From a bacterium (GTDB lineage: Bacteria; Myxococcota_A; Bradymonadia; UBA7976; UBA1532): a stretch of 64,000 nucleotides of DNA. A program made the position numbers and the translations under genes. The notes below the pieces were generated by a model that did no database searches, was not told where the DNA came from, and was given only the letters and a program-made list of their open reading frames with translations. Location of the stretch: the NCBI GenBank assembly GCA_030426085.1, contig JAUHYW010000002.1, positions 204,451 through 268,450 on the forward strand, written 5' to 3'. This document shows positions 44,201-56,646 of this stretch, in pieces. The first letter of the stretch is position 1, and every line of letters starts with the position of its first letter.

Positions 44201-47020
44201 CTCGGCGATGACCTTGCGCATCCACTCGAAGGCGCCTTCGGTGTTGCGCATGTGCTGCTCGGCCAGCTCGGCGCTGCGCATCATCAGCACCCGCCGCTGC
44301 TCGGGCTCGCTCTCGTTCTCGAGCAGCACCTCGAGCACGCCGACCAGCTTCCGGTGATCGTCGTTGGCGGTGTAGATCGGCTCCAGCCGCCGGGCGGCCT
44401 CGACGTTGCCCGGCTCGGTCTGCAGCACCCGTTCGAGGGCCCGCACCGCGCGGTCCTGCTGCTCGGTCTGCTCCTCGTAGATCCGGGCCGCCCGGAAGAG
44501 CAGGTCGATCTTGACCGCGTCCTCCTTCTGCACCCCGACCTGACCCTCGAGCAACCGCACCAGCTCGGCCCAGCCGTTGCGCTGGTCGGCGTAGAACGTC
44601 TCCAGCGCGTCCCAGTCACCCAGCTCGACGAGCGCCTTCTTCAGCGAATCGCCCGCCCGCCGGTTGCGGGGGTCGATCTCGAGCAGCCGCTGCCAGATGG
44701 GGACCGCCCGCGCTTTGTCGTCCATCCGATCCTGGAGCACGCTGCCCGACTTCTGCAGCAGATCAGCCTGCTCCTTGGGGTCGTCGACGAGGTCGACGAG
44801 GATGTCGATCGTCTCGACCAGCTCGTCGAAGTTCTTGCCCTGCTCGTAGGCCCCGACCAGGGCCCGCAGCGCGTCGACGTCCTCCGGCGCGATCTCGCGG
44901 ACCTTCTCCCACAGCGCCTGCACGATGTTGGGTCGGCGGATCTTCTTGTTGGCGTACTCGGCGAGGGCCTTGTAGCCCGCCAGCCGCTCGTCGATGCCGT
45001 CGGCCAGATCGGCGATGCGCTGGCGGGTCGCGATCAGGTTGTCCCAGTCGCGGCGCTTCTCGTACATCTTGTCGAGCGACTCGAGCGCCTGCCGGTTCTC
45101 CGGGTCGAGTTCGAGCACCGCTTCGAAGGCTTTGATCGCCTCGGCCTGATTGCGCAGCCGGTCGAGGTACAGGCTCGCGATCTGCAGCCCGTAGTCGATC
45201 TTCTCCTGCCCGTCGGCCCGCTCGAACTGGGTCTCGAGGACCCCGATCAGATCGGGCCAGCGCCGCATCGACTCGTACTTCTCGATGAGCAGCGCCGGGA
45301 CCTCGGCGTCGCTGGGGTCCAGCGCGAGGATCTCGGCGTAGATCTGGACCACCTGCGCGTCCTGCCGGACGTGCTCCGACATCAGCTCGGCCAGCCGGCG
45401 CAGCCCGTCGAGCTTCTTCCGGGTCTGGCTCTCGGGGATGTCGTCGACGACGACCCGCAGGACGTCGATCAGCTCCTTGTGCTTGCCGAGCGCCTCGTAG
45501 AGCCGCAACAGCGCGCGCCGGGCCGGCTTGTCCTCCTTGTCGGCCTGATGCACCTGCCGCCAGAAGTCGGCCGCCTTCTCCTGATCACCCAGCCGGCGCT
45601 CGGCGAGGCGGGCCATCTGCCGCAGCGCGGCGACCCGGGCCTCAGCCGGCTTGCCACCGGCCTCCTGAGCGAAGACCTGCTGCACGTTGCGCCACTTGCC
45701 GGCCTCGACCAGCCGCACGGTCTGCCACCGCACCACCGCCGGATCGTCCGACTTCTTGGCCATCTCGCGCAGCTTGTAGTCGACCGTGCGCTCCTCACCG
45801 AGGTGCGCCGCGCCGAAGACCAGCCGGTGGGCCGCGATCGCGTCGGGGCGCTCCGACGACTCGGCGAGGGCGTCGAGCCCCTCGGCCACCGCCGCCTTCA
45901 ACTCATCGGAGCCCTCCAGGGAACGACCGGCGGCCCAGTAGACCTCCACCTCGCCCGCGTCGGCCTCGACGGCGGCGAGATACAGCCGCTGGAAGTCGTC
46001 CATCTGATCGGCGCCGAGCGCCGCCGCCGCCCGACCGTAGAGGTCGTGCCGTCGCGCCCCGCTGGCCTGCCCGGCCATCGCCTCGAGCTCGGCGGTCGAG
46101 AGCCGGTCGAGCGCCTCGTCTTCGTCCTCGTCCTCGTCGGCAGCGGGCTCCGGCGCAGCGGCCACGGGCGCAGCGGGCTGGGGCGCAGGCGGCGGCTCGG
46201 GCGCCGCCTCCTGGGTCGCCTCGACCGGCGTCTCCACGGTGGACTCGGGGCTGTCCTCCTCCGCCCCGCCGCCGAGGGCCGCGAGCCGGGCCCGGGCGTC
46301 CTCGTTGTTCGGGTCGAGGCGCACGATCTCCTGAAGCACCGGCAGCGCGGCCTCCTGCTGACCGAGATCGACCAGGTAGAGGTTGGCCATCTCCTCCAGC
46401 ACTGCGAGCCGACGCCCGTCGTCGGGGGCCCGCTCCAGCTCGTACTGCAGGAGCTGAACCACCATGTCGAGGTTGTCGACGTCGCGATGGATGCGCCGGG
46501 CCGCCGCGACCGCGTCGAGCTGCTCGGGATCGGTCTGGTAGGCGAACTCGTAGTACTCCAAGGCCCGCGCCCGATCCCCGACCCGCTCGTCGAGGATCTG
46601 CCCCATCTGGAATACGAGCGCCGCTCGGTCCTGCGGCGTCTCGAGACGTTCCTGCTCGGCGGTCGCGACCTCGAGGTAGCTCTCCCACTCCCCGAGCACG
46701 AGCAGCAGCCGACGCATCTCGGCCAGCGTCGTCAGGACGCCCGCCGGTTCGAGCCCCTCCCCCTCCAGCGAAGCGCTGTAGAGCTGAACCGCCTGCGCCA
46801 GATCCTCGAGGTGGTCACGGGCCACCTCGGCTCCCCGCCGGAGGAACTCGGCCCGGGCCTGCATATCCGCCGTCTCGTGCTCGGCGAGGTGCACGTAGAG
46901 CTGGGCGAGTTCCTCCCAACTGCCCTGCTCACGCAGGAGGGCTTCGAGTTCACCGCTGGCCTCGCGGTTGCTCGGATCCTCAATCACCGCATCGAAGAGC
47001 TCGCGAATCCGCTCGGTCAT
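35294..47020 (-). CDS. giant (3908 aa) cytoplasmic TPR-repeat protein, AgmK/GltI-like
   Basis: Single uninterrupted frame of 11,727 nt. More than 80 consecutive ~34-aa TPR-like units (…A(I/L)E(A/L)LERLY…W(E/D)EL…) with no signal peptide. The antisense 4044-aa ORF is L/R/V-rich and featureless. Size and composition match the M. xanthus gliding protein AgmK. Confidence 0.8.
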   Translation of the reverse strand: MTERIRELFDAVIEDPSNREASGELEALLREQGSWEELAQLYVHLAEHETADMQARAEFLRRGAEVARDHLEDLAQAVQLYSASLEGEGLEPAGVLTTLAEMRRLLLVLGEWESYLEVATAEQERLETPQDRAALVFQMGQILDERVGDRARALEYYEFAYQTDPEQLDAVAAARRIHRDVDNLDMVVQLLQYELERAPDDGRRLAVLEEMANLYLVDLGQQEAALPVLQEIVRLDPNNEDARARLAALGGGAEEDSPESTVETPVEATQEAAPEPPPAPQPAAPVAAAPEPAADEDEDEDEALDRLSTAELEAMAGQASGARRHDLYGRAAAALGADQMDDFQRLYLAAVEADAGEVEVYWAAGRSLEGSDELKAAVAEGLDALAESSERPDAIAAHRLVFGAAHLGEERTVDYKLREMAKKSDDPAVVRWQTVRLVEAGKWRNVQQVFAQEAGGKPAEARVAALRQMARLAERRLGDQEKAADFWRQVHQADKEDKPARRALLRLYEALGKHKELIDVLRVVVDDIPESQTRKKLDGLRRLAELMSEHVRQDAQVVQIYAEILALDPSDAEVPALLIEKYESMRRWPDLIGVLETQFERADGQEKIDYGLQIASLYLDRLRNQAEAIKAFEAVLELDPENRQALESLDKMYEKRRDWDNLIATRQRIADLADGIDERLAGYKALAEYANKKIRRPNIVQALWEKVREIAPEDVDALRALVGAYEQGKNFDELVETIDILVDLVDDPKEQADLLQKSGSVLQDRMDDKARAVPIWQRLLEIDPRNRRAGDSLKKALVELGDWDALETFYADQRNGWAELVRLLEGQVGVQKEDAVKIDLLFRAARIYEEQTEQQDRAVRALERVLQTEPGNVEAARRLEPIYTANDDHRKLVGVLEVLLENESEPEQRRVLMMRSAELAEQHMRNTEGAFEWMRKVIAEHPADAEARRELERLGEATGSWPAVHEDLTAALDRVPDMAPADVDPMAAQLEILLSLGRILDKQMGAHEQALERYHQALEIDPDNREALDAVEALYTRAMDWHALLGVLDRKLALAEESEARKELFRKQGLIFENQLEEPISAIERYRSVVDEDPEDRDALESLRRLYESTEQFHELHEVLGRLRQMALDAEDAEQSVALKMVMAVLELHHLERAPEAIGNFREILADDPGHDGARQALEGLLEEPQYRGEVAGILEPIYRDASAWEPLVVVLEIQLEETLDIERRVELLERIGTLHVERTADIERAFDAFARMFREAPSSEVAIAQLEKLAEVADGWDVLAELIEQVLPEVPDEPLARALLARLAGIYEERLDNAEMAIDAHRRVLDLEPEDRPAIEALDRLYTRTEQWVELLSIYRRKLELTEEPEAREALQFQIANLLEAMLGEPREAIAVYNEIIDIAPENGRALEALDRLYGQEELWAELADILGRRLALAEDAGAQVELRVRLGELRETKLHNFDLAIETYREILEVDPDNAAAIGALERLSEDPTFRPAIADILEPIYERQDDWQKLIQVYEIQREFSPDEARKVELLHQIAELHQSRGADAVSAFQSYARAFQVDPSHEETLTHLHRIAGALDLWADLAAVYEQQVPEILDPDVATAVHKRVAEVQLRQLQDYDGAREHYEAAYQADDSDMGVIEALEEIYRTSELWSELVAVLYRKAELTDEVGPKKALYFQIAGLNEEMLGDPFRAVEALRTVRELDPVDWQALEELERLFNGMEQWEDLLEVLHRKAELTEDVEARKRIYYAIGASCEMQLEDPMRAVDTYTAVLEWDPNDLEALTSLERLYGKLEYWEDLQKVLARQVELVPDDQKIDIRFRVAQLHEIHLLDVETAIEGYKGILADQPEHAPSIEALEGLIRQDREARMAAEVLEPVLTKAGNWPRMIEVWRALLDVTMDLEVRTGLRMRVGQAYEDMLADSDGAFEAYGAAFKEDPTHEAALAALERVAQNAEMWGPFVELVEAQLVAIPSEYVARDLYLRVARAYEEELGDAEAAIQRFRRVMEIDPDHEVAILALDRLHEKVGNWPELAEILQLRVERAEDAERVPLLLRLGALFETALEETSQSITAYKDVLEIEAEQPDAVVALERLFEAGHEQPNIGEVLEPIYLGNEQWAKLHDLLQALLAHQLPGEDRMRSMHRLAEMSLEQLDDKQRAFLWYGEAFKEVPEDEHSRRELLRLAEEIDGWENLVAIYTEGLENTQDFELIRTSCHDMADIYRQRLSNDEMAESMYQHVLTQIDPTDARALKGLDVLFEEQGRWPELIDILRREVEVTYDEPELIALMYRLGQLYERQAELEAAVEEYNGILARQPNHPDALGRLEQIYVVQENWPPLYEVYARQAENAEVDPDRARILAAQANLAGGFLDRTFDAVDLWNQVLDLRGEDAEALMALEGLYQVQESWRELVDVCERQVNLLDNDTAREKQLYAKLGRVWGDYLERERNALENWHKVLELDPDDEDALWAVRELYDRIDEQAKVAEFDHRLLALLPGDDMRRVELFRQLGELNMGELEDEGQAIWAWTQLLALEPYDPQAIGCLEDLYQQAENWDACVQILERKVEITEDVYDKVSILFRAAEMYEEQLGDATGAQQCYVKVLEVQPDNFDAYDNLERLYEAGEQWESLVNLLLGRLGVTTELAEMLDIYERTAKAFEERLGDIEKAFVVLGQAFEACLDDERFGGELARLAELGGYWSPLIETYQRVIEALGETPESVPLRIRVARWWDEKLQQPEYANTHYEYALAIEPDNVEALTARELLLERYEQWEMVAGILQRKVELVQTPEESKASYEKLARILEHHLDRPDEAIEAYRQVLLVDGADLPSLVALEGLYTVRMRWQELIDVLLNQAAVLEETGQIVEKYLQVGELWETRLDSPERAIEAYRQALSADDRCVEAMRALERLYGQLDQWTELLDVYELMLQVAESDADRLRIYRQIAEIQEAQVQDRFATIDAYRAMMEIAPGDPHAVQALDRLYRESEQWDELAEVYDKHLEVIQDPDTMVLIRTALAEIHRGPLSNPQAAIEALTPILEPLPDHLATLQTLSVLYAEVEDWTHAIDVISREAHQIQDRGELLDRQYRVGRIYQEKVGDLEQAERWFRSALEHDPNYLPALEALEEVNESRGEWSEAVRTLQMMEAATRNFAEKSKYLFRIGRIYEKHIDERTMAIDYYEQAMDMSPDNADAAEPLVDVYWADQNWARAEPLLDLMLQGKQDADIRELQQLNYRIGYCAEQLRKDEKALGHYRQAYELDSTHLPTLQGMGNLLFRHEDWDRAFKIYQTILVHHRDSLDEGEVVGIFHQQGQIKLKLGERRKALDFFRKALEIDPRNAEILKALIDLHEARNDWEDVIHYRRQVAGLIDDPGEKFQALVGIGDILHEQMNNTRLAVDAYNDALEVQPGSRLVLGKLIGLHEAAENWPAMVDVLSQLAELETNPQRKSKYWCGVATLQREKLRDNFVAVRSFDKGLAADPANLRAFQAIDQILTEERDYERQDRYYRKMLKRATESGLEDGLVFSLAKNLGEINRTRLERFAEAIKAYKIALSKKPDDAPTHSILAELYEREDQIDKAIAQHYTLINLNPRAVESYQELRRLFMDVGKYDEAWCVAQVLVFLNQASPDERLLYEKYRSRTLKQAQRQLDQRHWGLIFHPEKSPLLDHLFQQLYLYTLPVVAKNHKQLGLHKRKTVLNPDEQTPFNSVMKYVSHTTRLPTPEAHRDPQNRPGLRLVELNPPAMLVGPDIVSGRKPQELAFAGAKQLFLSGQSNFLANLGESYEQRKMYLSTIVYTLMRLVKPDANVQYDPNLLEQWGKSIPMPARAEMSKLIQKASTNPKVHLNVSKWLETVEHTGNRLGLVLANDLGAAVQVIKNEAGSFSRAPVQDRIRELVLFALSENYFKLRQALGLAIGSSR

Positions 47021-47111: not shown

Positions 47112-47996
47112 TCACTTGGTTCGCTTCTTCGCCGCCTCTTCCAGACGAGCGAGCGTATCCTGCGCCGCCTCGATCCGCAGCGGATCCTCATTGGCCGTGC
47201 GCCGGGTCAGGTACAGCTTGAGGTGCTGAATCGCCGCCGGGCCGTCGCCGTTCGCGAAGTACGCCATCCCCAGGTTGAAGAAGGTGCCGGCGTGCTTGCC
47301 ATCGAGCGAGCGGGCCTTCTCGAACTGGGCGATCGCGTCGTCGAGGCGACTCTGGGCCTGATACACCAGCCCCAGGTCGTGATAGTTCAACGCCCACTGG
47401 GGGTTGTTCTCGATCGCGTTCTTGAACACCTGCGCCGCGTGGGAATACTGCTCGAATCGGCGGTAGAGGTTGCCCAGCGCGTTGTACGCCTCGGGCAGCC
47501 GGGGGTCGGTGCGCACGGCCTGCATGTAGACCTCCTGCGCCCGGTCGAACTGTTCGAGGTGCTCGAGCGCCATGCCCAGCCGCAGGTGGGCCTCCGCCCG
47601 GGAGGGATCGGCCTCGATCGACGTCTCGAGGTTCGTCACCGCGTCCTTCCAGCGGCGCTGCTTGGCCAGCGTCGCGCCGAGGTGATAGCTGTACTCTGCG
47701 CTGTCCGGCCTCAGCTCGAGCGCCCGGCGGTAGTTCTCCTCGGCGGCCTTGAACTTGGCCAGCTTCTGCTCGTAGAGCAGCCCCTGATAGAAGAACGCCC
47801 GGTCGTTGGTCGGATCGACATCGGCGGCCTGCCCCAGCTTGCTGAGGGCATCGGTCAGCCGGTCCCGCTGGAAGAGCTTGAGCCCCTCGTTCATCAGCCG
47901 GATCGACTCGTTCCGCTCCTGATTGCACCCGGTGCCCAGCGTGAGGCAGCCCGCCAACCAGACGAACACACCCCATCGCGCCACGGTTCGGATCAT
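47112..47996 (-). CDS. TPR-repeat lipoprotein
   Basis: Lipobox MIRTVARWGVFVWLAGCLTLGTGC followed by ~7 canonical TPR units (AFFYQGLLYEQ, AEAHLRLGMALE, PEAYNALGNLY, ALNYHDLGLVY, AGTFFNLGMAYF). Confidence 0.7.
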   Translation of the reverse strand: MIRTVARWGVFVWLAGCLTLGTGCNQERNESIRLMNEGLKLFQRDRLTDALSKLGQAADVDPTNDRAFFYQGLLYEQKLAKFKAAEENYRRALELRPDSAEYSYHLGATLAKQRRWKDAVTNLETSIEADPSRAEAHLRLGMALEHLEQFDRAQEVYMQAVRTDPRLPEAYNALGNLYRRFEQYSHAAQVFKNAIENNPQWALNYHDLGLVYQAQSRLDDAIAQFEKARSLDGKHAGTFFNLGMAYFANGDGPAAIQHLKLYLTRRTANEDPLRIEAAQDTLARLEEAAKKRTK

Positions 47997-48202
47997 GTAT
48001 CTGCTCGCTTCCAGCCGACCTGCCAGGTCCATTCGAGGAACAGGGCGCCGGTTTTGGAGGTATCACCGGGTCGGTATGCAGTCAAGAACCGGCCCCGCGC
48101 CGGACGTCTCTGCGGCGATGGATCGGCCCCACCCGCGCAACGGTCTTCGAAACGCCGACACCCCGCCGGGTGGGCGGGGTGTCGGAATGAACGGGGCGCG
48201 AC

Positions 48203-49972
48203 TCAGCTCGGCTTGAAGATGAAGGGGTACGTCACGATGACGATGCCGCCCCCCTTGGGCGCCGGGAAGACCCACCGCTTGATCTTGCTGGCCAGGCAGT
48301 TCTCCACGCTAGCGTTCTTCATGGTCGACTCGACGACCTGAGAGGCGATGACGCTGCCGTTGCCGGCGATGGTGAACTTCACCTTGATCTTGCCGTTGAG
48401 GTCGCGCTTGCGGTTCAGCTCGCGCTCGTAGCAGTACCGATACTCGGCCCGGTGCCGGCGAATGACCCGGCGGATGGTCTCCCGGTCGAGCGAGCCCTGC
48501 ACGATGGGCTTGCCGGGGATGACCTTGGGCGACTTGGCCGACTTGCGACCGAGCCGGCTCTGACCCCGACCGTAGCCGCTGTTGCCGCTGCCGCCTCGGC
48601 CCCGGGTGCCGACGTTGCCGACGCCGATGGACGCCTCACCGAAGCCACCGCCGCCGCGCCCGACCCCGGCGACGCCGAGGCCACCGAAGCCGGCGGCCGC
48701 GCCGGTCTTGTCGCCGAACATGTTGCCCAGCGCGCTGACGGCATCCGAGCCGATGGCCTGATTGCCCTCGCCCCAGACCGAACTCAGCTCGCCTTCGAGG
48801 CTGTTGACCGCCGCCTGAGCGGTGTCGATCGCCTCCTGGCGGGCCCGCTCACGGGCCAGTTCGATCTCCTCCTGGTTGCCCTCGACCGCGAAGCGCTTGT
48901 CCTTCGCCTCTTCGGTCCGGTCGCCCATCTCCCCCTGATCGTCCTTGGCCTTCTCCGCCTTCTCGCCCTCGTCCTTGAGGTCGCCGAAGAGGTCCTCGAT
49001 CTTCTGCTTCTCCTCCTCGGGCGTGAGCATGAACTCGACGAACCGGTCGGACATGTCGAAGCCGTCCATCGACAGGCTGTCGGCGTCCTCGGGGATGCTC
49101 AGCACGATCAGGAAGAAGAGGGCGTGCAGGACGGCCGCGGCGAGCAGATACCGCAGGAGCTGCGGATCCATCGCCTTGAGGAACGACCCCCGCCCGACCA
49201 TCGGGGCCGCCGGCACCGAGTTGATGAGGAAGGTCAGGTCACCGAACTTGAGCCGACACCGGGCCCGCGGCGGCAGGCGCAGCGAGTGACTCTGGGGCAC
49301 GGCCGAGCGGCCGAGCTTGCCCGCCGCCTTCAGCTCGTCGATGGCGTAGACCTTGCCGTCGAGCATCACCTCGCCCTCGATGCCCTCGGGCACGTTGACG
49401 ACCATGGTGTTGCCGTCGGTCTCGGCGAGCGGGAACGGGTTCTGGCGGATGAACTGGGGGTTGACGAAGTGCGACGCGTCCTCGCCGTCCCCGATGGTGT
49501 AGCTCGCCGCCTCGGTGAAGTGCTGCACGTCGACGACGGTGACGCCCCACAGGACGAGCACCTCGAGCGCCCGGCGTCCACCCGCTTCGGCCTCGTTCTC
49601 GTCGAAGAGCGGCGCGTTGGAGACCACCGGCCGCCGCCCGGCGCCGCCTCGCTGGGCGCTCTGCCCGGCGATGGCCACCACGACCGTGGTGCCGCCGAAG
49701 CGGATCCGATCGCCGGTGCGCAGCCGGTGCTTGGTCACCCGCTCGCCGTTGACGTAGGTACCCGTGGCGCTGCCGAGGTCCAGGATGACCACGTCATCGG
49801 GGCTGCTGGCCTCGATGACCGCGTGCATCCGTGACACGCTGTCGTCGTCGATCCGCACATGGGACGACGACAACTTGCCGATCTTGATCGTCTGCTCTGC
49901 CAGAATCTCGGTTCGTACGAGTTGATTGCCCTCGTATATGTCGAACTTGATCGGCGTGTTCGCGGTGTCCAT
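48203..49972 (-). CDS. FHA domain - TM - TonB C-terminal-like domain protein (GltG/PglI-like)
   Basis: N-terminal FHA domain (IKIGKLSSSHVRIDDDSVSRMHAVIE...LDLGSATGTYVNGERV). Central TM helix (LLAAAVLHALFFLIVLSI). E/K-rich and G-rich periplasmic linker. C-terminal TonB_C-like domain (...GKIKVKFTIAGNGSV...GGGIVIVTYPFIFKPS). Confidence 0.7.
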   Translation of the reverse strand: MDTANTPIKFDIYEGNQLVRTEILAEQTIKIGKLSSSHVRIDDDSVSRMHAVIEASSPDDVVILDLGSATGTYVNGERVTKHRLRTGDRIRFGGTTVVVAIAGQSAQRGGAGRRPVVSNAPLFDENEAEAGGRRALEVLVLWGVTVVDVQHFTEAASYTIGDGEDASHFVNPQFIRQNPFPLAETDGNTMVVNVPEGIEGEVMLDGKVYAIDELKAAGKLGRSAVPQSHSLRLPPRARCRLKFGDLTFLINSVPAAPMVGRGSFLKAMDPQLLRYLLAAAVLHALFFLIVLSIPEDADSLSMDGFDMSDRFVEFMLTPEEEKQKIEDLFGDLKDEGEKAEKAKDDQGEMGDRTEEAKDKRFAVEGNQEEIELARERARQEAIDTAQAAVNSLEGELSSVWGEGNQAIGSDAVSALGNMFGDKTGAAAGFGGLGVAGVGRGGGGFGEASIGVGNVGTRGRGGSGNSGYGRGQSRLGRKSAKSPKVIPGKPIVQGSLDRETIRRVIRRHRAEYRYCYERELNRKRDLNGKIKVKFTIAGNGSVIASQVVESTMKNASVENCLASKIKRWVFPAPKGGGIVIVTYPFIFKPS

Positions 49973-50007
49973 ACGCCCCCGTCCAGGTCGAGAGACCGGG
50001 CTGTCGG

Positions 50008-50305
50008 TCAGATGTCTTCGGCCGACTTGAGCATCTCGGGGACGAAATTCTCCCGGATGCGAATCAGGCTGCTGTGCCGTGCGCGGCGCCGGGAGTCGAG
50101 ATACTCCCCTTCGGGGCGCACGAACGACCCCTCCACCACGTCGTCCTCGAAGTCGTATTCGGTCTGCCTGCGGTAGACCACGTTCGGATCGTTCGGATCC
50201 TGCAGGAAGTCCTCGCTATTGGGGTCGACTTCTTCCTGCGCGCTCGCTACGACAGGCGCGGCGACGAGGGCGACGAGGACAAAAAGGCTTCGAATGCTGA
50301 GCATG
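50008..50305 (-). CDS. small secreted protein (GltF-like by position)
   Basis: Signal peptide MLSIRSLFVLVALVAAPVVASAQEE followed by ~75 acidic residues. Start at the internal Met of ORF 50008..50487. Confidence 0.45.
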
Positions 50306-50470
50306 CCTCTCTCCTTCGAACTCGATGAGGCGCATCGACAGCAGTCAGTATAGCGGTGTCGCGTCGGCCGACCAACCCCGCCGCGGCAGTCGACACACAT
50401 GATGGGGGGAAGTTCTCTCGAGAGGAATTTTTTCCGGGTCGGCGTCGGGCGACGCCCCGGCGATCTCCGC

Positions 50471-51715
50471 TCAGCCGTCCCCGCCACCGCCGCCCTGAGC
50501 GGCGTCCTGCGCCTTCTGCTGGCGCATCATCTCTTCGAGTTCCTTCATGTTCTTGATCTGGATGCGCACCGCCTCGATGCGCTGGGTCACGTCCTTGCGC
50601 AGTTCGGCATCCTGCCGCTCGTAGCGCAGCACGGCCTCGTACTCCTTGATCGCGTCTTCCAACTTCTGGGTGTACTCCTGGTAGAGGATCCCCAGGTTGT
50701 AGTGCGCGCCGACGTAGGTCTCGTCCTTGGCGATCACGGCCTTGTAGCCCGACTCGGCCTCGTCGAGGCGCTCGAGCCCCCGGGCGGCCACGGCCTTCGA
50801 CAGCATCGCCTCGAGGTGCTCGGGCTTCTGCTTGAGCACCTCCGAGAAGTGGCGGTAGCTCGACTCGTAATCCCGGTAGCTGAAGGTGATCGCGCCCACG
50901 TTCATGTGGGCCGGCCAGTAGTCGGCGTCGGTCTTGAGCGCGTCCTCGAAGGAGCCGAGGGCCAGGGTCACGTTGTCCTGCTTGAGGTGCACGAGGCCCA
51001 GCGTGTTGTACAGGTCGGGCGTCTTCTGGATCTCGAGCCCGGTGAGGCAGACCAGCTTGGCCAGTTCGAAGCGCCCCAGGTCGTAATACACCCGCGCCAG
51101 CACCTCGTAGGCCAGCACGTTCTGGCTGTCTTCCTTGAGGGCGGTGCGCACGTGCTTGACGGCGTTGGCGAAGTCCCGCCGCGAGCGCGCGTCCTGGGCG
51201 AGGTTCAGGTGGGCCTCGCCGTTGAACGGCTCGATCTGGATGGCCTTGCGGAACAAGGCCATCGCCTCGCCCTTGTTGCCCTTCTCCATCTCGAGCCGGC
51301 CGAGGTTGACGAGGCCATCACCGAAGCCCTTGCCCTTCTCGGCCGAGCGCTCGTACCACGACTTCGCCTCGTCGGTGCGGCCCTGCTCCTCGTGGATGCG
51401 GCCGATGTTGAAGTAGGCGGCCCCGAAGGTCTCGTCGACGTCGATGGCCTGCTCGAACAGACCGATGGCCTGGGACGCGTTGCCCGCCTTGTAGGCTTTG
51501 ACCCCGTCCTCGAAGAGCGGCTTGGCCTCCTTGGCCACCTTCGGCGCCGGCGGGGGCTCGTCGGGGAGCTGCTGGTCGCCGCTGCCGCCCCCGGCGCCGA
51601 GCGAGCCGTCACCGTCGGGCCGCGAGGGGTTGCCGCCACAGGCGATCAGCGAGAAGGAGACGAAACCGAGCGCGCTCAGGCGCGCGATCCGGGCCGCGAG
51701 TGCCGACACGCGCAT
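50471..51715 (-). CDS. TPR-repeat lipoprotein (AglT/GltE-like)
   Basis: Lipobox MRVSALAARIARLSALGFVSFSLIACGG. At least 8 TPR units, then an E/K-rich C-terminal helix. The start overlaps the stop of the upstream gene by 1 nt (TGATG). Confidence 0.7.
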   Translation of the reverse strand: MRVSALAARIARLSALGFVSFSLIACGGNPSRPDGDGSLGAGGGSGDQQLPDEPPPAPKVAKEAKPLFEDGVKAYKAGNASQAIGLFEQAIDVDETFGAAYFNIGRIHEEQGRTDEAKSWYERSAEKGKGFGDGLVNLGRLEMEKGNKGEAMALFRKAIQIEPFNGEAHLNLAQDARSRRDFANAVKHVRTALKEDSQNVLAYEVLARVYYDLGRFELAKLVCLTGLEIQKTPDLYNTLGLVHLKQDNVTLALGSFEDALKTDADYWPAHMNVGAITFSYRDYESSYRHFSEVLKQKPEHLEAMLSKAVAARGLERLDEAESGYKAVIAKDETYVGAHYNLGILYQEYTQKLEDAIKEYEAVLRYERQDAELRKDVTQRIEAVRIQIKNMKELEEMMRQQKAQDAAQGGGGGDG

Positions 51716-54700
51716 CACTCCTCCTCCTCTTCTTCGCTGGGCAGCTCGGTGATGACCGCCTGGGCCACCGCCGGGGGACCGAAGTAGGTCGGCCGGGCCC
51801 GCCGCTCGGCGTTGTAGCGGTACTCTCGCGGACGCAGGCTCGCGAGCTGCTTCTCGGCGAGGTCCGACCATTGGTTGAACCAGCGCAGCTCCTGGGCCTT
51901 CTGCATGCAGAGCACGTAGGCCTCGACCGCCTTGCCGATCTGGACCTCGGACATGTCGGTCATCTGGCCCTTGAAGATCTCGGTCTGCTCGTCATTGAAC
52001 GACTTGGGCGCGGGGTAGTTGTAGATGTCGTTGCCCAGCGCCTGATACATCTGCCCGATCCGGGCCAGGGCCGCGATCGCCCAGTTCGGGGAGCGGAACT
52101 GAATCACCTCGAGGTAGATTTTCTGCGCCTCGACGACGATCTGGGTGCGCTCCTTGATGCGCGAGGTCATCTCTTTGACGAACCGCTTGACGTTGCGGAA
52201 CGACTTGCCCTTGAGCGGCTTGCGCTCGAGGTCGACGAAGATCGCCTCGCCCATCTTGAACCGGGCCTCGGCCACGGCCGCGATGCCGGTGGTCACCGCG
52301 TTCTTCTGGTCGTCGGGCAGCTCCATGAAGGTGGTGTAGGCCTCTTCGTAGGCCTTCTGGGCCTTGCGCTCGTCGGGCCGCTTGAACTTCATGTAGGCGT
52401 TGCCGATGCGGGTGTGGGCCTCGATGATCAGGTCGATCTTGGCCACCTTGCCGTAGTCCCGCATGAACTTCTGATAGTGGGAGACCACCCGCTCCCACTG
52501 CTCCTGCTTCTCGAGGATGCCGCCGAGCGAGAAGAAGACCTCCGACGCCTTCTCCTTGTCGTTGCGGCCGACGAGCTTCATGTACTTCAGGTAGTTGTCG
52601 GTGGCCTTGTCCAGCTCGCCGAGCCCCTCCCGGAAGACCGCCGCGTTGCGGATCGCGTCCTTGGCCTCGTCGGTGTCGGGGAAGTTCTCCGCGTAGAACT
52701 CGTAGACCTCGCTGGCCTTGGAGTAGATGGCCAGCGCGTGCAGGTTGCCGGCGATCTGGTAGGTCGCCTTGCGCACCAGTTCGCCCTCGCCGACGGTGTT
52801 GACCAGAGCCTGCCGCATCTGGATCGCCCGCTCGATCTGCTTCTCACGCTCGTAGTTGAGCGCCGCGTTGTACAGCGCCTCGTCGACGTACTCCGACTTG
52901 GGGAACTGCCGGGCGTAGCGCCGGAAGCAGCGGGCCGATTCGATGTACTTCTTGGTCGCCTCGATGCCCTGGCACTTCTTGAAGGTCGACTGCTGCTTGA
53001 GCTTGGTCAGCAGATCGTAGAACTCCGGGTCCCGATCGGGGGTGTAGAGCTTGAGGAAGATGTCGACCTGACTGTCGAGGGCCTTGAAGTCCTTCTTGAG
53101 GTTGTAGGTGTCGAGCAGCAGGTTGGCCGCGAAGATGGCCAGCCGGTGGTTGCGGTGCTTCTCGGCGATGTTCTTGAACCGGGGAATCGCCTTGTCGAAG
53201 TGGTTGAAGTCGTAATAGATGCGGGCCGCGTCGTACTCGATGTCGACGAGGAACTCGCTCTTCTCGACGTACTTCGAGTAGAGGTCGCAGGCCGCGATGT
53301 AGGCCTTGTGATCCTCGGAGATGGGATTCGGCTCGGGCACCTTGACCTCTTCGCCCGAGCTGACCATGCCCTGATCCTGACCCCGGGTCTCGGGCTGGGA
53401 CGGCTGAGCGAGGTTGAGCAGCTCTTTGTAGGCCAGCACGGCGCCGTGGGCGGCGTCCTTGGTGTGCTCGCCCTTCGGCTGCAACGCGAGGGCCTTCTCG
53501 TAGTTGGTCGCGGCGTCCTTCCACTTCTTGAGGTCGTAGAGCAGCTCGGCGAAGTAGAAGGTCATCTCGTAGGCGTTCTTGCCGCTGGGGAAGATCACCA
53601 CGTAGTCGGTGTAGAGGTCGTAGGCCAGCGCGGCGTGGTCCGGGTTCTTGGTCTTCATGTAGAGGCGGTGCTTGTCCACCGCCGTGCGCCGCAGCAGCTC
53701 CTCGATGCGGGTCTCGTCCTTGGCCACCCGCTCGGGCTCGGCGTCCTTCGCCCCCTTCACGGTCGCCCAGAGCTGCACGAGGCGCTTGAGCTCCTTGATG
53801 GCCTTGACCTGATCACCCAGGTTCTGGGTGTTCGAGGCGATCATGGTCTGGAAGCTGACCACCCGGTAGCTGCTGCGCTGCCGCTTGATCAGGTTGCGGA
53901 AGAGCTGGTTCGACTTCTCGTACTGGCCGGTGTCGGCGTAGGCCTCGGCCAGCTTCTCGGAGAGGTCGAGGTAGTCGTCGGGGGCCACCCGCTGGAAGAA
54001 CGAGATCGCCTTGTTGGGGTTGGCGTCCTCGAGGTGCACATAAGTGCGCACGAGGTCGCGCTGGGCCTCGCGGATGAGCGTCAGCCGGTTGCGGCCGCCT
54101 TTCATCTTGCGGCCGTGCTCGATCACCCGCAGGAAGACCTTCAGCGCGTCCTTGAACTTGCCGAGGTTGTAGTTGCACCAGCCGAGCTTGTAGAGCGCGT
54201 AGCCGTAGACCGTGCTGTCGCGGTAGCTGCTGGTGACCTTCTCGTAGGCCTTCTTGGCCTGAGCGACCTTGCCGTCCTCGAAGAAGATCTCACCGATGTT
54301 GAGCAGCGTGTCGGGCACGTGCACCGAGCGCGGATAGCGCCGGATCAGCTCGCCGTAGATCTTCTTGGCCGCCTCGGGCTGCTCCTTGCGCTGGTAGTTG
54401 AAGGCGAGCGCGAAGAGCACGCCGTCCAGCCGGGGGTAGCGGGGGAAGTTCTTGACGATGTGCTTGTAGACCTCGATCGCCTGGTCCCGGTACTTCTGGG
54501 CACCGGCGGCGGTCTGCTCCCGGGTCTGGGTGCAGCGGCTCGCGGCCGCGTCGTTGGGCGCCGACCGCAGGCACTGCTCTTCGGTGTCGAAGGCCCGCAT
54601 CTCGGTGGCGCTGGCGCGCTCCCAGTACATTTCGGACAGCCGGTACAGCAGGTCCGGCTTGGCCGGGTCGCTGTCGGGCGTGGTCTTGATGAGCTTCTTG

Positions 54701-54957
54701 AGCAGGTTGAAGGCTTCCTGCCACTTGGCCTCGGCGAGCTGCTCGGTCTGGCGACGCACGAACTGCTCGCCGCCGAGGCCGGGGCCCTTGCGCTCGGCCC
54801 GGCGCTTCTGGGTCGGCCCCTGGGTGTTCGGCTGAGCTTCGGGCACGAAGCTCTTCTTCTTTTCCTGCGCCGCCGCGTCTCCGGCGGTCAGGCCGCCCAG
54901 GGCGAGAGCAAACGCGGCGAGGGCTGCGGCTGCGGTGCGCCACGTCATCGGCCACAC
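51715..54957 (-). CDS. large secreted TPR-repeat protein (AgmU/GltD-like)
   Basis: Signal peptide MWPMTWRTAAAALAAFALALGGLTAGDAAAQ. 1080 aa of TPR-like repeats rich in K/Y/F/N. Ends in an EEEEEE tail. Confidence 0.75.
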   Translation of the reverse strand: MWPMTWRTAAAALAAFALALGGLTAGDAAAQEKKKSFVPEAQPNTQGPTQKRRAERKGPGLGGEQFVRRQTEQLAEAKWQEAFNLLKKLIKTTPDSDPAKPDLLYRLSEMYWERASATEMRAFDTEEQCLRSAPNDAAASRCTQTREQTAAGAQKYRDQAIEVYKHIVKNFPRYPRLDGVLFALAFNYQRKEQPEAAKKIYGELIRRYPRSVHVPDTLLNIGEIFFEDGKVAQAKKAYEKVTSSYRDSTVYGYALYKLGWCNYNLGKFKDALKVFLRVIEHGRKMKGGRNRLTLIREAQRDLVRTYVHLEDANPNKAISFFQRVAPDDYLDLSEKLAEAYADTGQYEKSNQLFRNLIKRQRSSYRVVSFQTMIASNTQNLGDQVKAIKELKRLVQLWATVKGAKDAEPERVAKDETRIEELLRRTAVDKHRLYMKTKNPDHAALAYDLYTDYVVIFPSGKNAYEMTFYFAELLYDLKKWKDAATNYEKALALQPKGEHTKDAAHGAVLAYKELLNLAQPSQPETRGQDQGMVSSGEEVKVPEPNPISEDHKAYIAACDLYSKYVEKSEFLVDIEYDAARIYYDFNHFDKAIPRFKNIAEKHRNHRLAIFAANLLLDTYNLKKDFKALDSQVDIFLKLYTPDRDPEFYDLLTKLKQQSTFKKCQGIEATKKYIESARCFRRYARQFPKSEYVDEALYNAALNYEREKQIERAIQMRQALVNTVGEGELVRKATYQIAGNLHALAIYSKASEVYEFYAENFPDTDEAKDAIRNAAVFREGLGELDKATDNYLKYMKLVGRNDKEKASEVFFSLGGILEKQEQWERVVSHYQKFMRDYGKVAKIDLIIEAHTRIGNAYMKFKRPDERKAQKAYEEAYTTFMELPDDQKNAVTTGIAAVAEARFKMGEAIFVDLERKPLKGKSFRNVKRFVKEMTSRIKERTQIVVEAQKIYLEVIQFRSPNWAIAALARIGQMYQALGNDIYNYPAPKSFNDEQTEIFKGQMTDMSEVQIGKAVEAYVLCMQKAQELRWFNQWSDLAEKQLASLRPREYRYNAERRARPTYFGPPAVAQAVITELPSEEEEEE

Positions 54958-56510
54958 TCCGACTTGATGGTGTAGAGGTAGTAGCCCAGCTCGTCTCGCC
55001 AGTACTCACCGGTGAAGGGCCAGTAGATGTGCTCGTCGTCGGTCGCGTGCGCCGGGCCGGAGTCGGCCTTGCGCTTGTTGACGAAGCCGGCGCCGCGCAG
55101 GGCGTTCTCGAGCACGCCCTTCTCGGCGGAGGCCACCTCGAACTCGACCTTCAGCGCCTGACTGATGAGGTTGTTGAGTTCGTTGACCACCCGCTGCAGG
55201 CGCTCCTTGGCCAGCGTGCCGGCCTCGTGCACCGCGATCGACTTGATGATCTCGGTCTCCTGCACGATGGACTGGGCGAGCTGGCTGCGGGCCCAGGTCG
55301 AGGTCGACTTGCGGATGAGGTCGACCTCGCGGTCGAGCTCGCGCACATAGGCGTTGATGCGCTTGAGGGCCTTGTCCTGGAAGGCGGCGTTCAAGATCTG
55401 GCTGACTCGGGGCGAGATGGCGGTTCCGGAGTCCTGCAACTTGCTGAGGAATTGGTAGAATTCCGTCGGATCGGAGAAGGAGTCGAGGTAGCCCTTGATC
55501 TCTTCCCGCAGGGGCTCGTAGGTCAGCCGGAAGTCGTTGATGGCGTCCCGGGTGCGCTCGTAGTTGCAGTTGGCGTAGAAGATCACCGCTTCGAGGATAC
55601 CGGCCTCGGGCACGTACTCGTCGCTGAAGAACGGCGAGTTGAGCGTGTGCAGGTTGCCGAGCGCCTTCTCGTGGTTGTTCATCCGGAAGAACGTCCAGCT
55701 CGCTTCGAAGAGCGCGTCGAGCCACAGCGTGCTGTCGAGCGGGATCCGGTCGTAGTACTTGACCGCCTGCCGGAACTGGCCGGTGCTGTAGAACACCCGG
55801 GCCATGCTCAGGATCGAGAGCTGGTTGAAGTAGCGCAGGTCCTCGGTGACCTCGTCGGCGTCGATGGTCGCCCGCAGCAGATCCTTGAAGGCCTCGACCG
55901 CCGGCTTGGGCTGGTCGAGGCGCACGAAGCTGATGCCCTCGAGGAACTTGGCCTTGGGGAAGTACTGGCTCTGGGCGTCGACCTGCTTGAGCAGCGGCAG
56001 GCCGGTCTCGACGGCGCCCTGCTTGTAGTAGTGCTGGCCGAGCAGGAACGCGAGCTCGTCGCGGAACTCGGCGGGGCAGTCGGCCGGCTTGTAGTTGGAG
56101 ATCTTCTCGAGCAGCCCCGGGTCGCCGGAGATCTTGCGCGAGAGGTAGTACAGCCACTTGCAGGTGGCCTTGTAGTACCGATGGTCGGGGCCGGCCTCGA
56201 CCACCCGGGCGAAGTAGTTGAGCGACGCCTGGAAGAGCCCCAGCCGGTAGAGCGTCTTGCCGAGGGTGTACTCCGCCTTCTGCTCGTAGGGGTTGACCGC
56301 GACCTCGTTGCGGCTGACGAGCCGATACAGGATCAGGCTCGCCCGCAGGAAGTCGTCGTTCTTGTAGGCCTTGAGCGCCTCTTCGAGTTCGGCCTTGGCC
56401 TCCTCGTCCTCTTCGACGCTGACCGGCGCGAAGGTCATCGGCTCCTGCGCGACCGATGCGGCGGGCAGCAGGAGAATCAGGGAGAGGGGGAGGAGACGAC
56501 GCAGCAGCAT
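54945..56510 (-). CDS. secreted TPR-like helical-repeat protein
   Basis: Signal peptide MLLRRLLPLSLILLLPAASVAQE, start at the internal Met of ORF 54945..56609. Helical repeats throughout. The 3' end overlaps the start of the downstream gene by 13 nt. Confidence 0.6.
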   Translation of the reverse strand: MLLRRLLPLSLILLLPAASVAQEPMTFAPVSVEEDEEAKAELEEALKAYKNDDFLRASLILYRLVSRNEVAVNPYEQKAEYTLGKTLYRLGLFQASLNYFARVVEAGPDHRYYKATCKWLYYLSRKISGDPGLLEKISNYKPADCPAEFRDELAFLLGQHYYKQGAVETGLPLLKQVDAQSQYFPKAKFLEGISFVRLDQPKPAVEAFKDLLRATIDADEVTEDLRYFNQLSILSMARVFYSTGQFRQAVKYYDRIPLDSTLWLDALFEASWTFFRMNNHEKALGNLHTLNSPFFSDEYVPEAGILEAVIFYANCNYERTRDAINDFRLTYEPLREEIKGYLDSFSDPTEFYQFLSKLQDSGTAISPRVSQILNAAFQDKALKRINAYVRELDREVDLIRKSTSTWARSQLAQSIVQETEIIKSIAVHEAGTLAKERLQRVVNELNNLISQALKVEFEVASAEKGVLENALRGAGFVNKRKADSGPAHATDDEHIYWPFTGEYWRDELGYYLYTIKSECGR

Positions 56511-56617: not shown

Positions 56618-56646
56618 CTTATACGAGCGCATGGGTACGAAATCAA
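56618..56646 (-). promoter_or_regulatory. sigma70-like promoter candidate upstream of the TPR/Glt-like gene cluster
   Basis: On the minus strand: TTGATT, 17 nt, TATAAG. It lies in the only AT-rich patch of the 315-nt intergenic region, ~100 nt upstream of the ATG at 56510. Confidence 0.35.

What the first reader, a model, noticed from the sequence alone, without database searches (positions are those of the whole stretch)
47112..56510. Glt G1-like gliding-motility gene cluster with non-canonical composition
From 56510 down to 35294 on the minus strand the order is:
- secreted TPR protein;
- 1080-aa secreted TPR protein (AgmU/GltD-like);
- TPR lipoprotein (AglT/GltE-like), with a 1-nt TGATG overlap to the preceding gene;
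- small secreted acidic protein (GltF-like);
- FHA-TM-TonB_C protein (GltG/PglI-like);
- TPR lipoprotein;
- giant TPR protein (AgmK/GltI-like).

This mirrors the M. xanthus gltD-E-F-G-(H)-I order. There are three differences:
- an extra secreted TPR gene precedes it with a 13-nt overlap;
- I see no GltH-like barrel;
- no ZnR/GYF-TonB_C GltJ-like gene follows the giant gene; rsmI follows instead.

The 47-56.5 kb segment also looks somewhat less GC-rich than the flanks, with many K/N/Y/F codons. A candidate promoter sits in the AT-rich patch upstream.
Basis: partly seen in the sequence, partly recalled or inferred. Interest (0 to 1): 0.55.

Follow-up and report, generated by a model that had tools for sequence, protein, structure and literature searches.

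The report
Sorangium-type Glt gliding-motility gene cluster
This is a real myxobacterial gliding-motility (Glt) gene cluster, and its "odd" make-up is the usual arrangement outside the Myxococcus group, so it is an ordinary new member of a known system.

Summary
Seven co-directional minus-strand genes span 35294-56510. NCBI's curated Glt models rank first for four of them: GltC (2e-121), GltE (5e-42), GltF/CglF (1e-25) and GltG (9e-129). The 3908-aa protein aligns collinearly with an Archangium-type GltI. The order is gltC-D-E-F-G-(TPR lipoprotein "T")-gltI.

The three "non-canonical" points are explained:
- The extra upstream TPR gene is gltC.
- GltH and GltJ are absent from the window. In the 2011 survey (Luciano et al.), homologues were listed only for the Myxococcus/Stigmatella/Anaeromyxobacter group.
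- The same order and gene sizes are tabulated there for Sorangium cellulosum (sce2914-2921).

Among 80 genome loci around GltG relatives, 38 of 48 clusters carry T directly after gltG. T and gltI co-occur in 35, and gltI never appears without T.

The GC dip comes from amino-acid composition. GC3 is 0.81-0.96, mostly 0.93-0.96 as in the flanks, so this is not foreign DNA. A promoter-like TTGATT-17-TATAAG upstream of gltC is conserved in three relatives.

Whether the genome also holds aglRQS and the outer-membrane genes could not be tested. Verdict: new member of a known kind, low interest. The only mildly new point is the conserved T-gltI pairing.

The parts
54945..56510 (-). gltC: secreted TPR protein, 521 aa.
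   Evidence: The top NCBIfam hit is gliding_GltC NF033756, 406.7 bits, E 2e-121, model positions 96-619 of 622. That is below the equivalog cut-off of 450. The N-terminus MLLRRLLPLSLILLLPAASVAQEP looks like a signal peptide. Relatives are 68-96% identical at the same position.
51715..54957 (-). gltD (AgmU-like): secreted 1077/1080-aa TPR protein. The probable start is the ATG at 54948, giving an ATGA overlap with the gltC stop.
   Evidence: It carries TPR_6/YbgF-like repeats. No GltD model matched in NCBIfam. Homologues of 1050-1280 aa cover about 90% of its length, including an Anaeromyxobacter GltD paralogue (25% identity, E 7e-79; locus next to mglBA). It lies between gltC and gltE. The start is read.
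50471..51715 (-). gltE (AglT-like): TPR lipoprotein, 414 aa, with a TGATG overlap with gltD.
   Evidence: The top NCBIfam hit is gliding_GltE NF033758, 144.3 bits, E 5e-42, model positions 34-385 of 411, against a cut-off of 225. The lipobox is ...FSLIAC|GG. The gap to gltD is -1.
50008..50304 (-). gltF (= CglF): small secreted acidic protein, 98 aa.
   Evidence: Its only NCBIfam hit is gliding_CglF NF033764, 89.4 bits against a cut-off of 90, full length. CglF is GltF (PMC4488436). It is 43% identical to an Archangium-type GltF that passes the cut-off.
48203..49972 (-). gltG (PglI-like): cytoplasmic FHA domain, one TM helix, Gly-rich periplasmic stretch, TonB-C-like AgmX/PglI C-terminal domain; 589 aa.
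   Evidence: Pfam FHA, E 6e-20, and TonB_C. NCBIfam gliding_GltG scores 430.9 bits, E 9e-129, against a cut-off of 650. The myxo_SS_tail domain scores 118.2 bits against a cut-off of 40. It is 40-54% identical to the Archangium-type GltG in the FHA domain and the C-terminal half.
47112..48032 (-). T: TPR lipoprotein, 294-306 aa, with a conserved Cys directly before the motif NQERNESI. It has no counterpart in the M. xanthus G1 cluster. It is conserved between gltG and gltI in relatives.
   Evidence: Only generic TPR families hit: MamA 111 bits, Tgl 105 bits (cut-off 225), PilW 101 bits, GltE 57 bits. 38 of 48 Glt clusters in other genomes have an orthologue right after gltG. It co-occurs with gltI: T+I+ 35, T+I- 1, T-I+ 0, T-I- 7. 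The Cys and the signal-like N-terminus are conserved in most of 50 orthologues. It is absent from the Archangium-type locus.
35294..47020 (-). gltI (AgmK-like): 3908-aa cytoplasmic TPR giant with a non-TPR helical C-terminal domain of about 330 aa.
   Evidence: BLASTP against a 4083-aa Archangium-type protein gives 714 bits, 25% identity over 3138 collinear residues. That protein is flanked by GltG, GltH/CglE and GltJ equivalogues. Fragments in its 90% cluster are named 'gliding motility protein' by NCBI. The C-terminal 400 aa also match collinearly. No signal peptide is visible.
56618..56646 (-). Candidate sigma-70-like promoter of the cluster: TTGATT (56646-56641), 17-nt spacer, TATAAG (56623-56618). 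It lies in the AT-rich patch of the 315-nt divergent intergenic region.
   Evidence: Read from the sequence. The consensus scan did not report it, because it requires T at the last position of the -10 hexamer. TTTG and TATAA are invariant at the same spacing in three relatives whose GltG is 68-92% identical. Not tested experimentally.

Best explanation
The segment 35294-56510 (minus strand) is one co-directional cluster, probably one or a few operons. The order is gltC-gltD-gltE-gltF-gltG-T-gltI. It is the Sorangium/Polyangia-type version of the myxobacterial Agl-Glt (adventurous gliding) G1 cluster.

The mechanism below is inferred by analogy with M. xanthus and is not shown here:
- GltG sits in the inner membrane. 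Its TM helix and membrane-proximal domain dock onto a TolQR-like proton-driven AglRQS motor encoded elsewhere.
- Its periplasmic Gly-rich stretch and TonB-C-like domain bind the large TPR pillar GltD.
- GltE (a lipoprotein), GltF and GltC complete the periplasmic transducer. GltC links it to outer-membrane barrels and an adhesin encoded elsewhere.
- In the cytoplasm, the FHA domain of GltG docks onto the giant TPR scaffold GltI.
- Motor-driven movement of this complex against a surface-fixed adhesin propels the cell.

The extra lipoprotein T is a lineage-typical companion of gltI. Its role is unknown. I guess it is a periplasmic TPR adaptor of the same machine.

Shown here: gene identities, order, topology signals, and conservation of the whole block across many Myxococcota.
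Inferred: the protein interactions, dependence on AglRQS, and gliding as the output.
For: - Four adjacent genes each have a different Glt model as top NCBIfam hit: GltC 2e-121, GltE 5e-42, CglF/GltF 1e-25, GltG 9e-129. The AgmX/PglI C-terminal domain passes its cut-off.
- GltI aligns collinearly with an Archangium-type GltI: 714 bits over 3138 residues. That protein lies in a locus whose GltF, GltG, GltH/CglE and GltJ all pass the equivalog cut-offs.
- The same order and similar sizes are listed for S. cellulosum, a known glider (own knowledge): sce2914-2921 with C 568, D 1289, E 497, F 90, G 681, one unlisted gene, and I split as 1774+2081 aa.
- Among 80 genome loci, 37 of 47 with enough upstream sequence have C, D, E and F. 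38 of 48 clusters have T after G, and 35 of 43 then have gltI.
- Genes overlap or sit 35-208 nt apart. No terminator-like site on the coding strand falls in any gap between genes.
- gltI is absent from the sporulation paralogue Nfs, so its presence favours the gliding system.
- A crude NJ tree of GltG C-termini puts the window with T-I-type clusters. These are sister to the Archangium G1/GltH-type group and separate from an Anaeromyxobacter G4-type paralogue.
- The mechanistic model is taken from PMC11761067 and PMC3169522.
Against: - All four Glt model scores fall below NCBI's equivalog cut-offs: 407/450, 144/225, 89.4/90 and 431/650. These are therefore divergent orthologues or paralogues.
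- GltH and GltJ, both essential in M. xanthus, are absent from the window.
- The motor genes aglRQS, the outer-membrane genes gltA/B/K and cglB are not in the 64 kb. The rest of the genome could not be searched.
- The organism and all close relatives are uncultured MAGs, so no gliding phenotype is known.
- Relatives carry further GltG paralogues (L026, L052 and others).
- Orthology of GltD rests on position and family-level homology only.
Confidence: 0.75

Rival explanations
1. The cluster is a Glt-like paralogue that does something other than move the cell. Candidates are an Nfs-like machine that transports a surface polymer (spore coat) or another envelope task of the ancestral 'core complex'. 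It would use the same TolQR-driven transducer design.
For: - Scores are below the equivalog cut-offs.
- GltH, GltJ and GltK are not seen here.
- Luciano et al. show that paralogous clusters (G3/nfs, G4, G5) have non-motility roles and that the core complex exists in non-gliders.
- Relatives hold several GltG paralogues.
- No phenotype is known for these MAGs.
Against: - gltI is present, and the Nfs system lacks GltI, J and K.
- nfs is contiguous as A-H with the barrel genes A, B and H. None of these is adjacent here.
- The arrangement equals that of the glider Sorangium.
- GltG groups with GltI-linked clusters and near the Archangium G1 type in a crude tree.
Confidence: 0.18
2. The cluster is a horizontally acquired or decaying island. 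On this view the lower GC marks foreign DNA, and the missing gltH/gltJ mark an incomplete, non-functional copy.
For: - GC is 0.656 against 0.738 elsewhere in the window.
- Two M. xanthus-essential genes are missing.
Against: - GC3 of gltC, D, E, G and I is 0.93-0.96, the same as in the flanking housekeeping genes (0.92-0.96). gltF is 0.81, and T was 0.89 over its stop-to-stop frame.
- The drop is at GC1/GC2. It tracks a high share of K, N, Y, F, I and M: 17-29% against 9-14% in the flanks, except ribosomal protein L19 at 23%.
- All seven ORFs are intact.
- The block sits between the same housekeeping genes in relatives. yraN of the rpsP-trmD-rplS group lies upstream in many lineages, down to 30-40% GltG identity. 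rsmI lies downstream in the one relative where the end of gltI was seen, L005.
Confidence: 0.04
3. These are unrelated TPR proteins that resemble Glt proteins only through generic repeats.
For: - Pfam sees only generic TPR families in five of the seven products.
- T and GltD have no specific model hit.
Against: - The specific Glt models rank first by wide margins. GltC scores 407 bits against 31 for the next family, and GltG 431 against 118 for its own domain model.
- The non-TPR genes gltF and gltG also match.
- GltI matches an Archangium GltI collinearly, including the non-TPR C-terminal domain.
- Synteny is conserved in dozens of genomes.
Confidence: 0.01

Closest known systems
Sorangium cellulosum So ce56 cluster sce2914-sce2921 (Luciano et al. 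2011, Table S2)
   Same: The gene order is the same and the sizes are similar. Sorangium has GltC 568, GltD 1289, GltE 497, GltF 90, GltG 681, one unlisted gene (sce2919) and GltI (1774+2081 aa). The window has 521, 1077, 414, 98, 589, T 294-306 and 3908 aa. No GltH or GltJ homologue is listed for that genome. A Polyangiaceae MAG (L040) shows D-E-F-G-T-I.
   Different: I could not fetch the Sorangium sequence, so identity of sce2919 with T is inferred. In Sorangium, gltA/B lie seven genes upstream and aglRQS about 70 genes away. Neither is within this 64-kb window. GltI is in one piece here.
Myxococcus xanthus G1 cluster gltD-E-F-G-H-I-J (MXAN_4870-4862)
   Same: The order D-E-F-G...I is shared. 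So are the domain plans: a TPR pillar, a TPR lipoprotein, a small secreted protein, an FHA-TM-TonB-C-like protein and a giant cytoplasmic TPR with a helical C-terminal domain. NCBI's models for these proteins are the top hits.
   Different: - gltC is adjacent here, whereas it lies in the separate G2 cluster in M. xanthus.
- There is no GltH/CglE barrel and no GltJ (ZnR-GYF-TM-TonB-C-like).
- A TPR lipoprotein T lies between gltG and gltI. M. xanthus has there only the doubtful ORFs MXAN_4864/65.
- GltD here has a plain signal peptide. The M. xanthus model numbers mature GltD from Cys1, which suggests a lipoprotein.
- All scores are below the equivalog cut-offs.
Nfs sporulation machinery (nfsA-H, MXAN_3371-3378)
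   Same: C-D-E-F-G are contiguous in that order, and the system depends on a TolQR-like motor encoded elsewhere.
   Different: Nfs has the barrel genes A, B and H in the same cluster and lacks GltI. The window has GltI and T and none of A, B or H.
Ancestral 'core complex' (gltC, D, E, G with aglRQS in one operon; Geobacter, gammaproteobacteria, Fibrobacter)
   Same: gltC-gltD-gltE adjacency, and a GltG-like TonB-C protein.
   Different: There, the motor genes sit inside the cluster and GltF and GltI are missing. Here there are no motor genes within 64 kb, and GltF and GltI are present.

Membership tests
Agl-Glt gliding machinery, G1-type cluster | GltG: FHA domain, single TM helix, AgmX/PglI (TonB-C-like) C-terminal domain | tested here: met
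   FHA E 6e-20. myxo_SS_tail scores 118 bits against a cut-off of 40. The GltG equivalog model is the top hit at 431 bits but below its cut-off of 650. An Archangium-type GltG scores 972.
Agl-Glt gliding machinery, G1-type cluster | GltD: large exported TPR protein encoded directly upstream of gltE | tested here: inconclusive
   Size, signal peptide, TPR content and position all fit. Family-level homology is shown to GltD-like proteins of Anaeromyxobacter and Bdellovibrionales. No curated GltD model matched, and no M. xanthus GltD sequence was available, so orthology was not tested directly.
Agl-Glt gliding machinery, G1-type cluster | GltE TPR lipoprotein and GltF small secreted protein | tested here: met
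   GltE is the top hit at 144 bits (cut-off 225), with lipobox LIAC. CglF/GltF scores 89.4 bits (cut-off 90). It is 43% identical to an Archangium-type GltF. Both are met at family level and are just under or under the equivalog thresholds.
Agl-Glt gliding machinery, G1-type cluster | GltI: giant cytoplasmic TPR protein of about 3800-4100 aa with a helical C-terminal domain | tested here: met
   3908 aa. 714 bits and 25% identity over 3138 collinear residues against a 4083-aa Archangium-type GltI lying between GltH and GltJ equivalogues. The C-terminal domain also matches.
Agl-Glt gliding machinery, G1-type cluster | GltH (CglE) outer-membrane barrel between gltG and gltI | tested here: not met
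   tblastn of the Archangium-type GltH against the window found nothing at E <= 1e-3. There is no CglE model hit. The gltG-T gap is only 170-208 nt. It is also absent from all T-I-type clusters sampled and present only in L061 and L055.
Agl-Glt gliding machinery, G1-type cluster | GltJ (ZnR-GYF-TM-TonB-C-like) next to gltI | tested here: not met
   rsmI follows gltI. GltJ tblastn hits only the C-terminal domain of GltG. GltJ is also not adjacent in relatives L005, L006 and L007. Whether it lies elsewhere in the genome is unknown.
Agl-Glt gliding machinery (whole system) | AglRQS TolQR-like motor, outer-membrane GltA/B/K and adhesin CglB encoded in the same genome | not testable with these tools
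   None lies in the 64-kb window. A different MAG (L025) has TolQ/TolR-like genes next to a GltG paralogue.
Sorangium/Polyangia-type Glt cluster (gltC-D-E-F-G-x-I) | gltC directly upstream of gltD, and one gene between gltG and gltI, with no gltH or gltJ | tested here: met
   The order matches sce2914-2921. It also matches about 35 genome loci, including MAGs labelled Polyangiaceae, Polyangia and Nannocystaceae.
Nfs sporulation machinery | Contiguous nfsA-H including barrel genes A, B and H; no GltI | tested here: not met
   No A/B/H-like genes are adjacent. The rpsP-trmD-rplS-rnhB-yraN genes and a small Cys-rich lipoprotein lie upstream. GltI is present.

The most novel reading that the evidence does not exclude
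The TPR lipoprotein T (47112-48032) may be an unrecognised structural component of GltI-containing gliding machines outside the Myxococcus group. These lineages would then run a GltH- and GltJ-less version of the bacterial focal-adhesion motor. If so, coupling to the polarity GTPase MglA, which goes through GltJ in M. xanthus, and the outer-membrane link must be made differently there.
Probability: 0.3. Interest if true: 0.45.

Novelty: new member of a known kind. Interest (0 to 1): 0.25.

Why it matters
It adds one more uncultured Myxococcota lineage to those that carry the A-motility transducer genes. More usefully, it shows that M. xanthus does not have the common arrangement. The widespread form is gltC-D-E-F-G-T-gltI, with no gltH or gltJ nearby.

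That is useful for annotation: the upstream TPR gene should be named gltC. It is also useful for choosing which components to treat as universal when modelling the machine.

The tight T-gltI pairing gives a cheap, testable lead: delete sce2919 in Sorangium. Otherwise the locus is ordinary.

Tried and rejected
- The full-length GltI homology search timed out. I replaced it with the last 700 aa. That returned only fragments, but it led through a 90% cluster to a full-length Archangium-type GltI.
- P0072, a 1192-aa GltD homologue I guessed to be Myxococcus AgmU, is not. It lies in an A-B-C-D-E-F-type cluster, and no DNA was held for it.
- P0061 (Anaeromyxobacter) lies next to mglBA and is therefore a G4-type paralogue, not G1.
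- I suspected the 180-aa gene between gltG and T in the 7.5-Mb MAG (L003) to be GltH. It is a lipoprotein with an AgmX/PglI C-terminal domain instead.
- I suspected L052 to hold a GltJ. It holds tandem lipoproteins that fuse a GltG-like periplasmic half to another domain.
- M. xanthus MXAN_4864/65 (agmV) is not a counterpart of T. Luciano et al. regard those ORFs as spurious, and they have no similarity to other proteins.
- L028, labelled Myxococcia, did not score closer to the M. xanthus models than the window does.
- The promoter scan found no minus-strand site upstream of gltC. The candidate site was read by eye and then checked by alignment.
- Rfam and tRNA scans of the window found nothing.
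- My first lipobox regular expression was too strict and missed most T orthologues. The conserved Cys was read from the printed N-termini.
- I could not obtain M. xanthus or Sorangium sequences, and I could not search the rest of this genome.

Full report
OBSERVATION. The window is high-GC (0.717) and comes from an uncultured member of Myxococcota. The ORF list, translations and codon-position GC confirm seven co-directional minus-strand genes between 56510 and 35294:
- 521 aa, signal peptide
- 1080 aa from GTG 54957, or 1077 aa from ATG 54948; signal peptide
- 414 aa, lipobox LIAC
- 98 aa, signal peptide, acidic
- 589 aa
- 306 aa, or 294 aa from the second Met
- 3908 aa

The gltD/gltE TGATG overlap is real. 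The "13-nt overlap" applies only to the GTG start. An ATG three codons downstream gives an ATGA overlap. Gene calls in relatives use that start, and the nearest homologues are 1076-1080 aa. rsmI follows the giant gene. Upstream lie yraN, rnhB, rplS and trmD.

GENE IDENTITIES. Pfam sees only generic TPR families, plus FHA and TonB_C in the 589-aa protein. NCBIfam is specific:

| Product | Top NCBIfam hit | Bits | Cut-off | E-value |
|---|---|---|---|---|
| 521 aa | GltC | 406.7 | 450 | 2e-121 |
| 414 aa | GltE | 144.3 | 225 | 5e-42 |
| 98 aa | CglF | 89.4 | 90 | 1e-25 |
| 589 aa | GltG | 430.9 | 650 | 9e-129 |
| 589 aa, C-terminal domain | AgmX/PglI C-terminal domain | 118 | 40 | - |

- CglF is GltF (PMC4488436).
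- The 1080-aa protein has no specific model hit. It has full-length homologues of GltD size, including an Anaeromyxobacter paralogue (E 7e-79) that lies beside mglBA.
- The giant protein was linked to an Archangium fragment through its last 700 aa. That fragment's 90% cluster holds pieces named "gliding motility protein" and a full-length 4083-aa member.
- The member's locus reads GltF-GltG-GltH(CglE)-x-GltI-GltJ. All four named proteins pass the equivalog cut-offs: 125, 972, 154 and 672 bits.
- The window's giant protein aligns with it over 3138 collinear residues (714 bits, 25% identity). Its non-TPR C-terminal domain also matches.
- The cluster is therefore gltC-D-E-F-G-T-gltI, where T is a TPR lipoprotein with only generic TPR hits.

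THE THREE "DIFFERENCES".
- Extra gene. It is gltC. Luciano et al. 2011 (PMC3169522) place gltC in the ancestral core together with gltD, E, G and aglRQS. They note that G1 and G2 are joined in Anaeromyxobacter, and that nfs runs A-B-C-D-E-F-G-H.
- GltH and GltJ. Neither is in the window. tblastn with the Archangium-type proteins finds nothing for GltH, and for GltJ only the C-terminal domain of GltG. NCBIfam scans of the other large ORFs are negative. In Table S2 of that paper, homologues of MXAN_4862 (GltJ) and MXAN_4866 (GltH) occur only in Myxococcus, Stigmatella and Anaeromyxobacter.
- Same layout in Sorangium. The table lists sce2914 (C, 568 aa), 2915 (D, 1289), 2916 (E, 497), 2917 (F, 90), 2918 (G, 681), an unlisted sce2919, and 2920/2921 (I, split). 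That is the layout of the window.
- Downstream of gltI. Relatives also lack gltJ there: rsmI follows in L005, tsaE in L006, and other genes in L007.

SYNTENY SURVEY. A scan of one genome per GTDB species with a GltG alignment returned 523 confirmed relatives, of which the 80 best were kept. All are MAGs, variously labelled Myxococcales, Nannocystaceae, Bradymonadia, Sandaracinaceae or Polyangia. The best is 92% identical, from GCA_030427205.1. I ran tblastn with the window's proteins against these loci:
- 37 of 47 loci with at least 9 kb upstream have C, D, E and F in order.
- 38 of 48 Glt clusters have T immediately after gltG.
- 35 of 43 clusters with enough downstream sequence then have gltI.
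- T and gltI co-occur: T+I+ 35, T+I- 1, T-I+ 0, T-I- 7.
- GltH homologues appear only in clusters that lack T and gltI next to gltG (L061, L055, weakly L076).
- The Archangium-type locus has no T.
- yraN lies upstream of the cluster in many lineages, down to 30-40% GltG identity.
- T orthologues keep a signal-like N-terminus and a Cys directly before a conserved NQERN-like motif.
- A crude NJ tree of the last 130 GltG residues puts the window among T-I-type clusters. These are sister to the Archangium G1/GltH-type group, with an Anaeromyxobacter G4-type protein outside. The tree has no support values, and I treat it as weak evidence.

GC AND PROMOTER.
- The segment 47112-56510 has GC 0.656, against 0.738 for the rest of the window.
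- GC3 of gltC, D, E, G and I is 0.93-0.96, equal to the flanking housekeeping genes. gltF is 0.81, and T was 0.89 over its stop-to-stop frame.
- GC2 is 0.36-0.44 against 0.46-0.57 in the flanks.
- K, N, Y, F, I and M make up 17-29% of residues, against 9-14% in the flanks apart from ribosomal protein L19 (23%).
- The dip therefore reflects protein composition, not foreign origin.
- The 315-nt region upstream of gltC is divergent. The scan tool calls TTGACA-16-TAGGAT on the plus strand, which serves a small Cys-rich lipoprotein gene.
- On the minus strand, TTGATT (56646-56641), a 17-nt spacer and TATAAG (56623-56618) sit in the AT-rich patch.
- TTTG and TATAA are invariant at the same spacing in three relatives, as are a GCGGCAAGC block further upstream and a GGA(A/G)GG ribosome-binding site.
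- No terminator-like site on the coding strand falls in any gap between genes.

HOW IT MOST LIKELY WORKS (inferred from M. xanthus; PMC11761067; PMC3169522).
- GltG is the inner-membrane adaptor of a TolQR-like AglR5QS proton motor.
- Its periplasmic stretch wraps the GltD pillar, and its TonB-C-like domain docks on the GltD N-terminal domain.
- GltE binds the GltD C-terminal domain.
- GltF bridges GltG, GltD and GltC.
- GltC links to the outer-membrane barrels and the adhesin.
- In the cytoplasm, the GltG FHA domain binds repeated sites on the GltI scaffold.
- The domain plans needed for this are all present here.
- None of these interactions is shown here. The motor, the outer-membrane module and any MglA-coupling protein are missing from the window. 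The role of T is a guess.

COMPARISON, NOVELTY, VERDICT.
- The cluster is a member of the Glt family at family level. All four specific models rank first but below the equivalog cut-offs, so these are divergent orthologues.
- It fails two features of the M. xanthus G1 type, GltH and GltJ. It meets the Sorangium-type layout in full.
- It is not Nfs, because it has GltI and lacks A, B and H. It is not the core-complex type, because no motor genes are adjacent.
The "non-canonical" framing is not: this is the common layout outside the Myxococcus group, and it has been visible in published tables since 2011.
- Novelty: new member of a known kind. Interest: 0.25.
- The one mildly new point is the conserved T-gltI pairing, its absence from the Myxococcus-type locus, and the mutually exclusive pattern with gltH.

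LIMITS.
- I had no M. xanthus or Sorangium sequences, so the comparison rests on NCBI's models, one Archangium-type locus and published tables.
- The rest of this genome could not be searched for aglRQS, gltA/B/K, cglB or gltJ.
- The organism is known only from metagenomes, so gliding is unverified.

Noticed in passing
window 56826-57239 (+): A small Cys-rich lipoprotein gene (137 aa, lipobox LLASGC) is transcribed divergently from gltC. It is conserved at the same place in relatives (141 and 138 aa in L001 and L002). It has no Pfam or NCBIfam hit. The only tool-called promoter-like site in the region, TTGACA-16-TAGGAT at 56747-56774 (+), lies upstream of it.
   Followed up: partly
window 56690-56700 (-); alignment A2 columns about 190-200: The block GCGGCAAGC, about 45 nt upstream of the -35-like hexamer of gltC, is invariant in four lineages whose GltG is 68-92% identical. 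It could be a regulator site.
   Followed up: no
loci L008-L087: The TPR lipoprotein T and gltI co-occur almost perfectly next to gltG (35 both, 7 neither, 1 T only, 0 gltI only). GltH/CglE homologues appear only in clusters without T and gltI adjacent.
   Followed up: partly
L024 9470-19401: A close relative labelled Nannocystaceae (GltC 81% identical) has gltC-D-E-F-G but neither T nor gltI in the 10 kb downstream. This could be a rearrangement or a mis-assembly, and it is not resolved.
   Followed up: no
L003 17999-18541 (same as L041), and L037 12379-12810: In a 7.5-Mb MAG and one other, a 180-aa lipoprotein with an AgmX/PglI C-terminal domain (42 bits, cut-off 40) sits between gltG and T, in the position gltH holds in M. 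xanthus.
   Followed up: partly
L052 25-2145 and 2201-4759 (+): Two tandem paralogous proteins of about 700-850 aa fuse a GltG-like Gly-rich stretch and AgmX/PglI C-terminal domain to a further domain of about 500 aa through a poly-Pro linker. The downstream copy (852 aa) starts with a lipoprotein-like signal. The contig belongs to the same MAG as the full cluster in L015, but it has lower GC (0.57).
   Followed up: no
L025 7041-11872: In another Myxococcota MAG, a GltG paralogue (41% identical) lies directly after TolQ-like (271 aa), TolR-like (153 aa) and 181-aa genes. That is an AglRQS-like motor linked to GltG, as in the ancestral core complex.
   Followed up: partly
L088 1-10000: In the Archangium-type contig, gltF-G-H-x-I-J is not preceded by gltD/gltE. 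An endonuclease gene on the other strand and a 437-aa lipoprotein lie there instead. A 597-aa Gly/Arg-rich ORF with no homologue in any other locus fills the gltH-gltI gap.
   Followed up: no
window 23603-27034 and 27098-30484 (+): Two tandem paralogous Ser/Thr kinases of about 1130 aa, each with kinase, AAA_16 and TPR_12 domains.
   Followed up: no
window 11000-13000 and 11971-23572: A second GC dip (0.617 at 11-13 kb). A run of large ORFs (1312, 1043, 528 and 916 aa) has no Pfam hit. One shows a weak VolA/Pla-1 lipase-like stretch (76 bits, cut-off 384).
   Followed up: no
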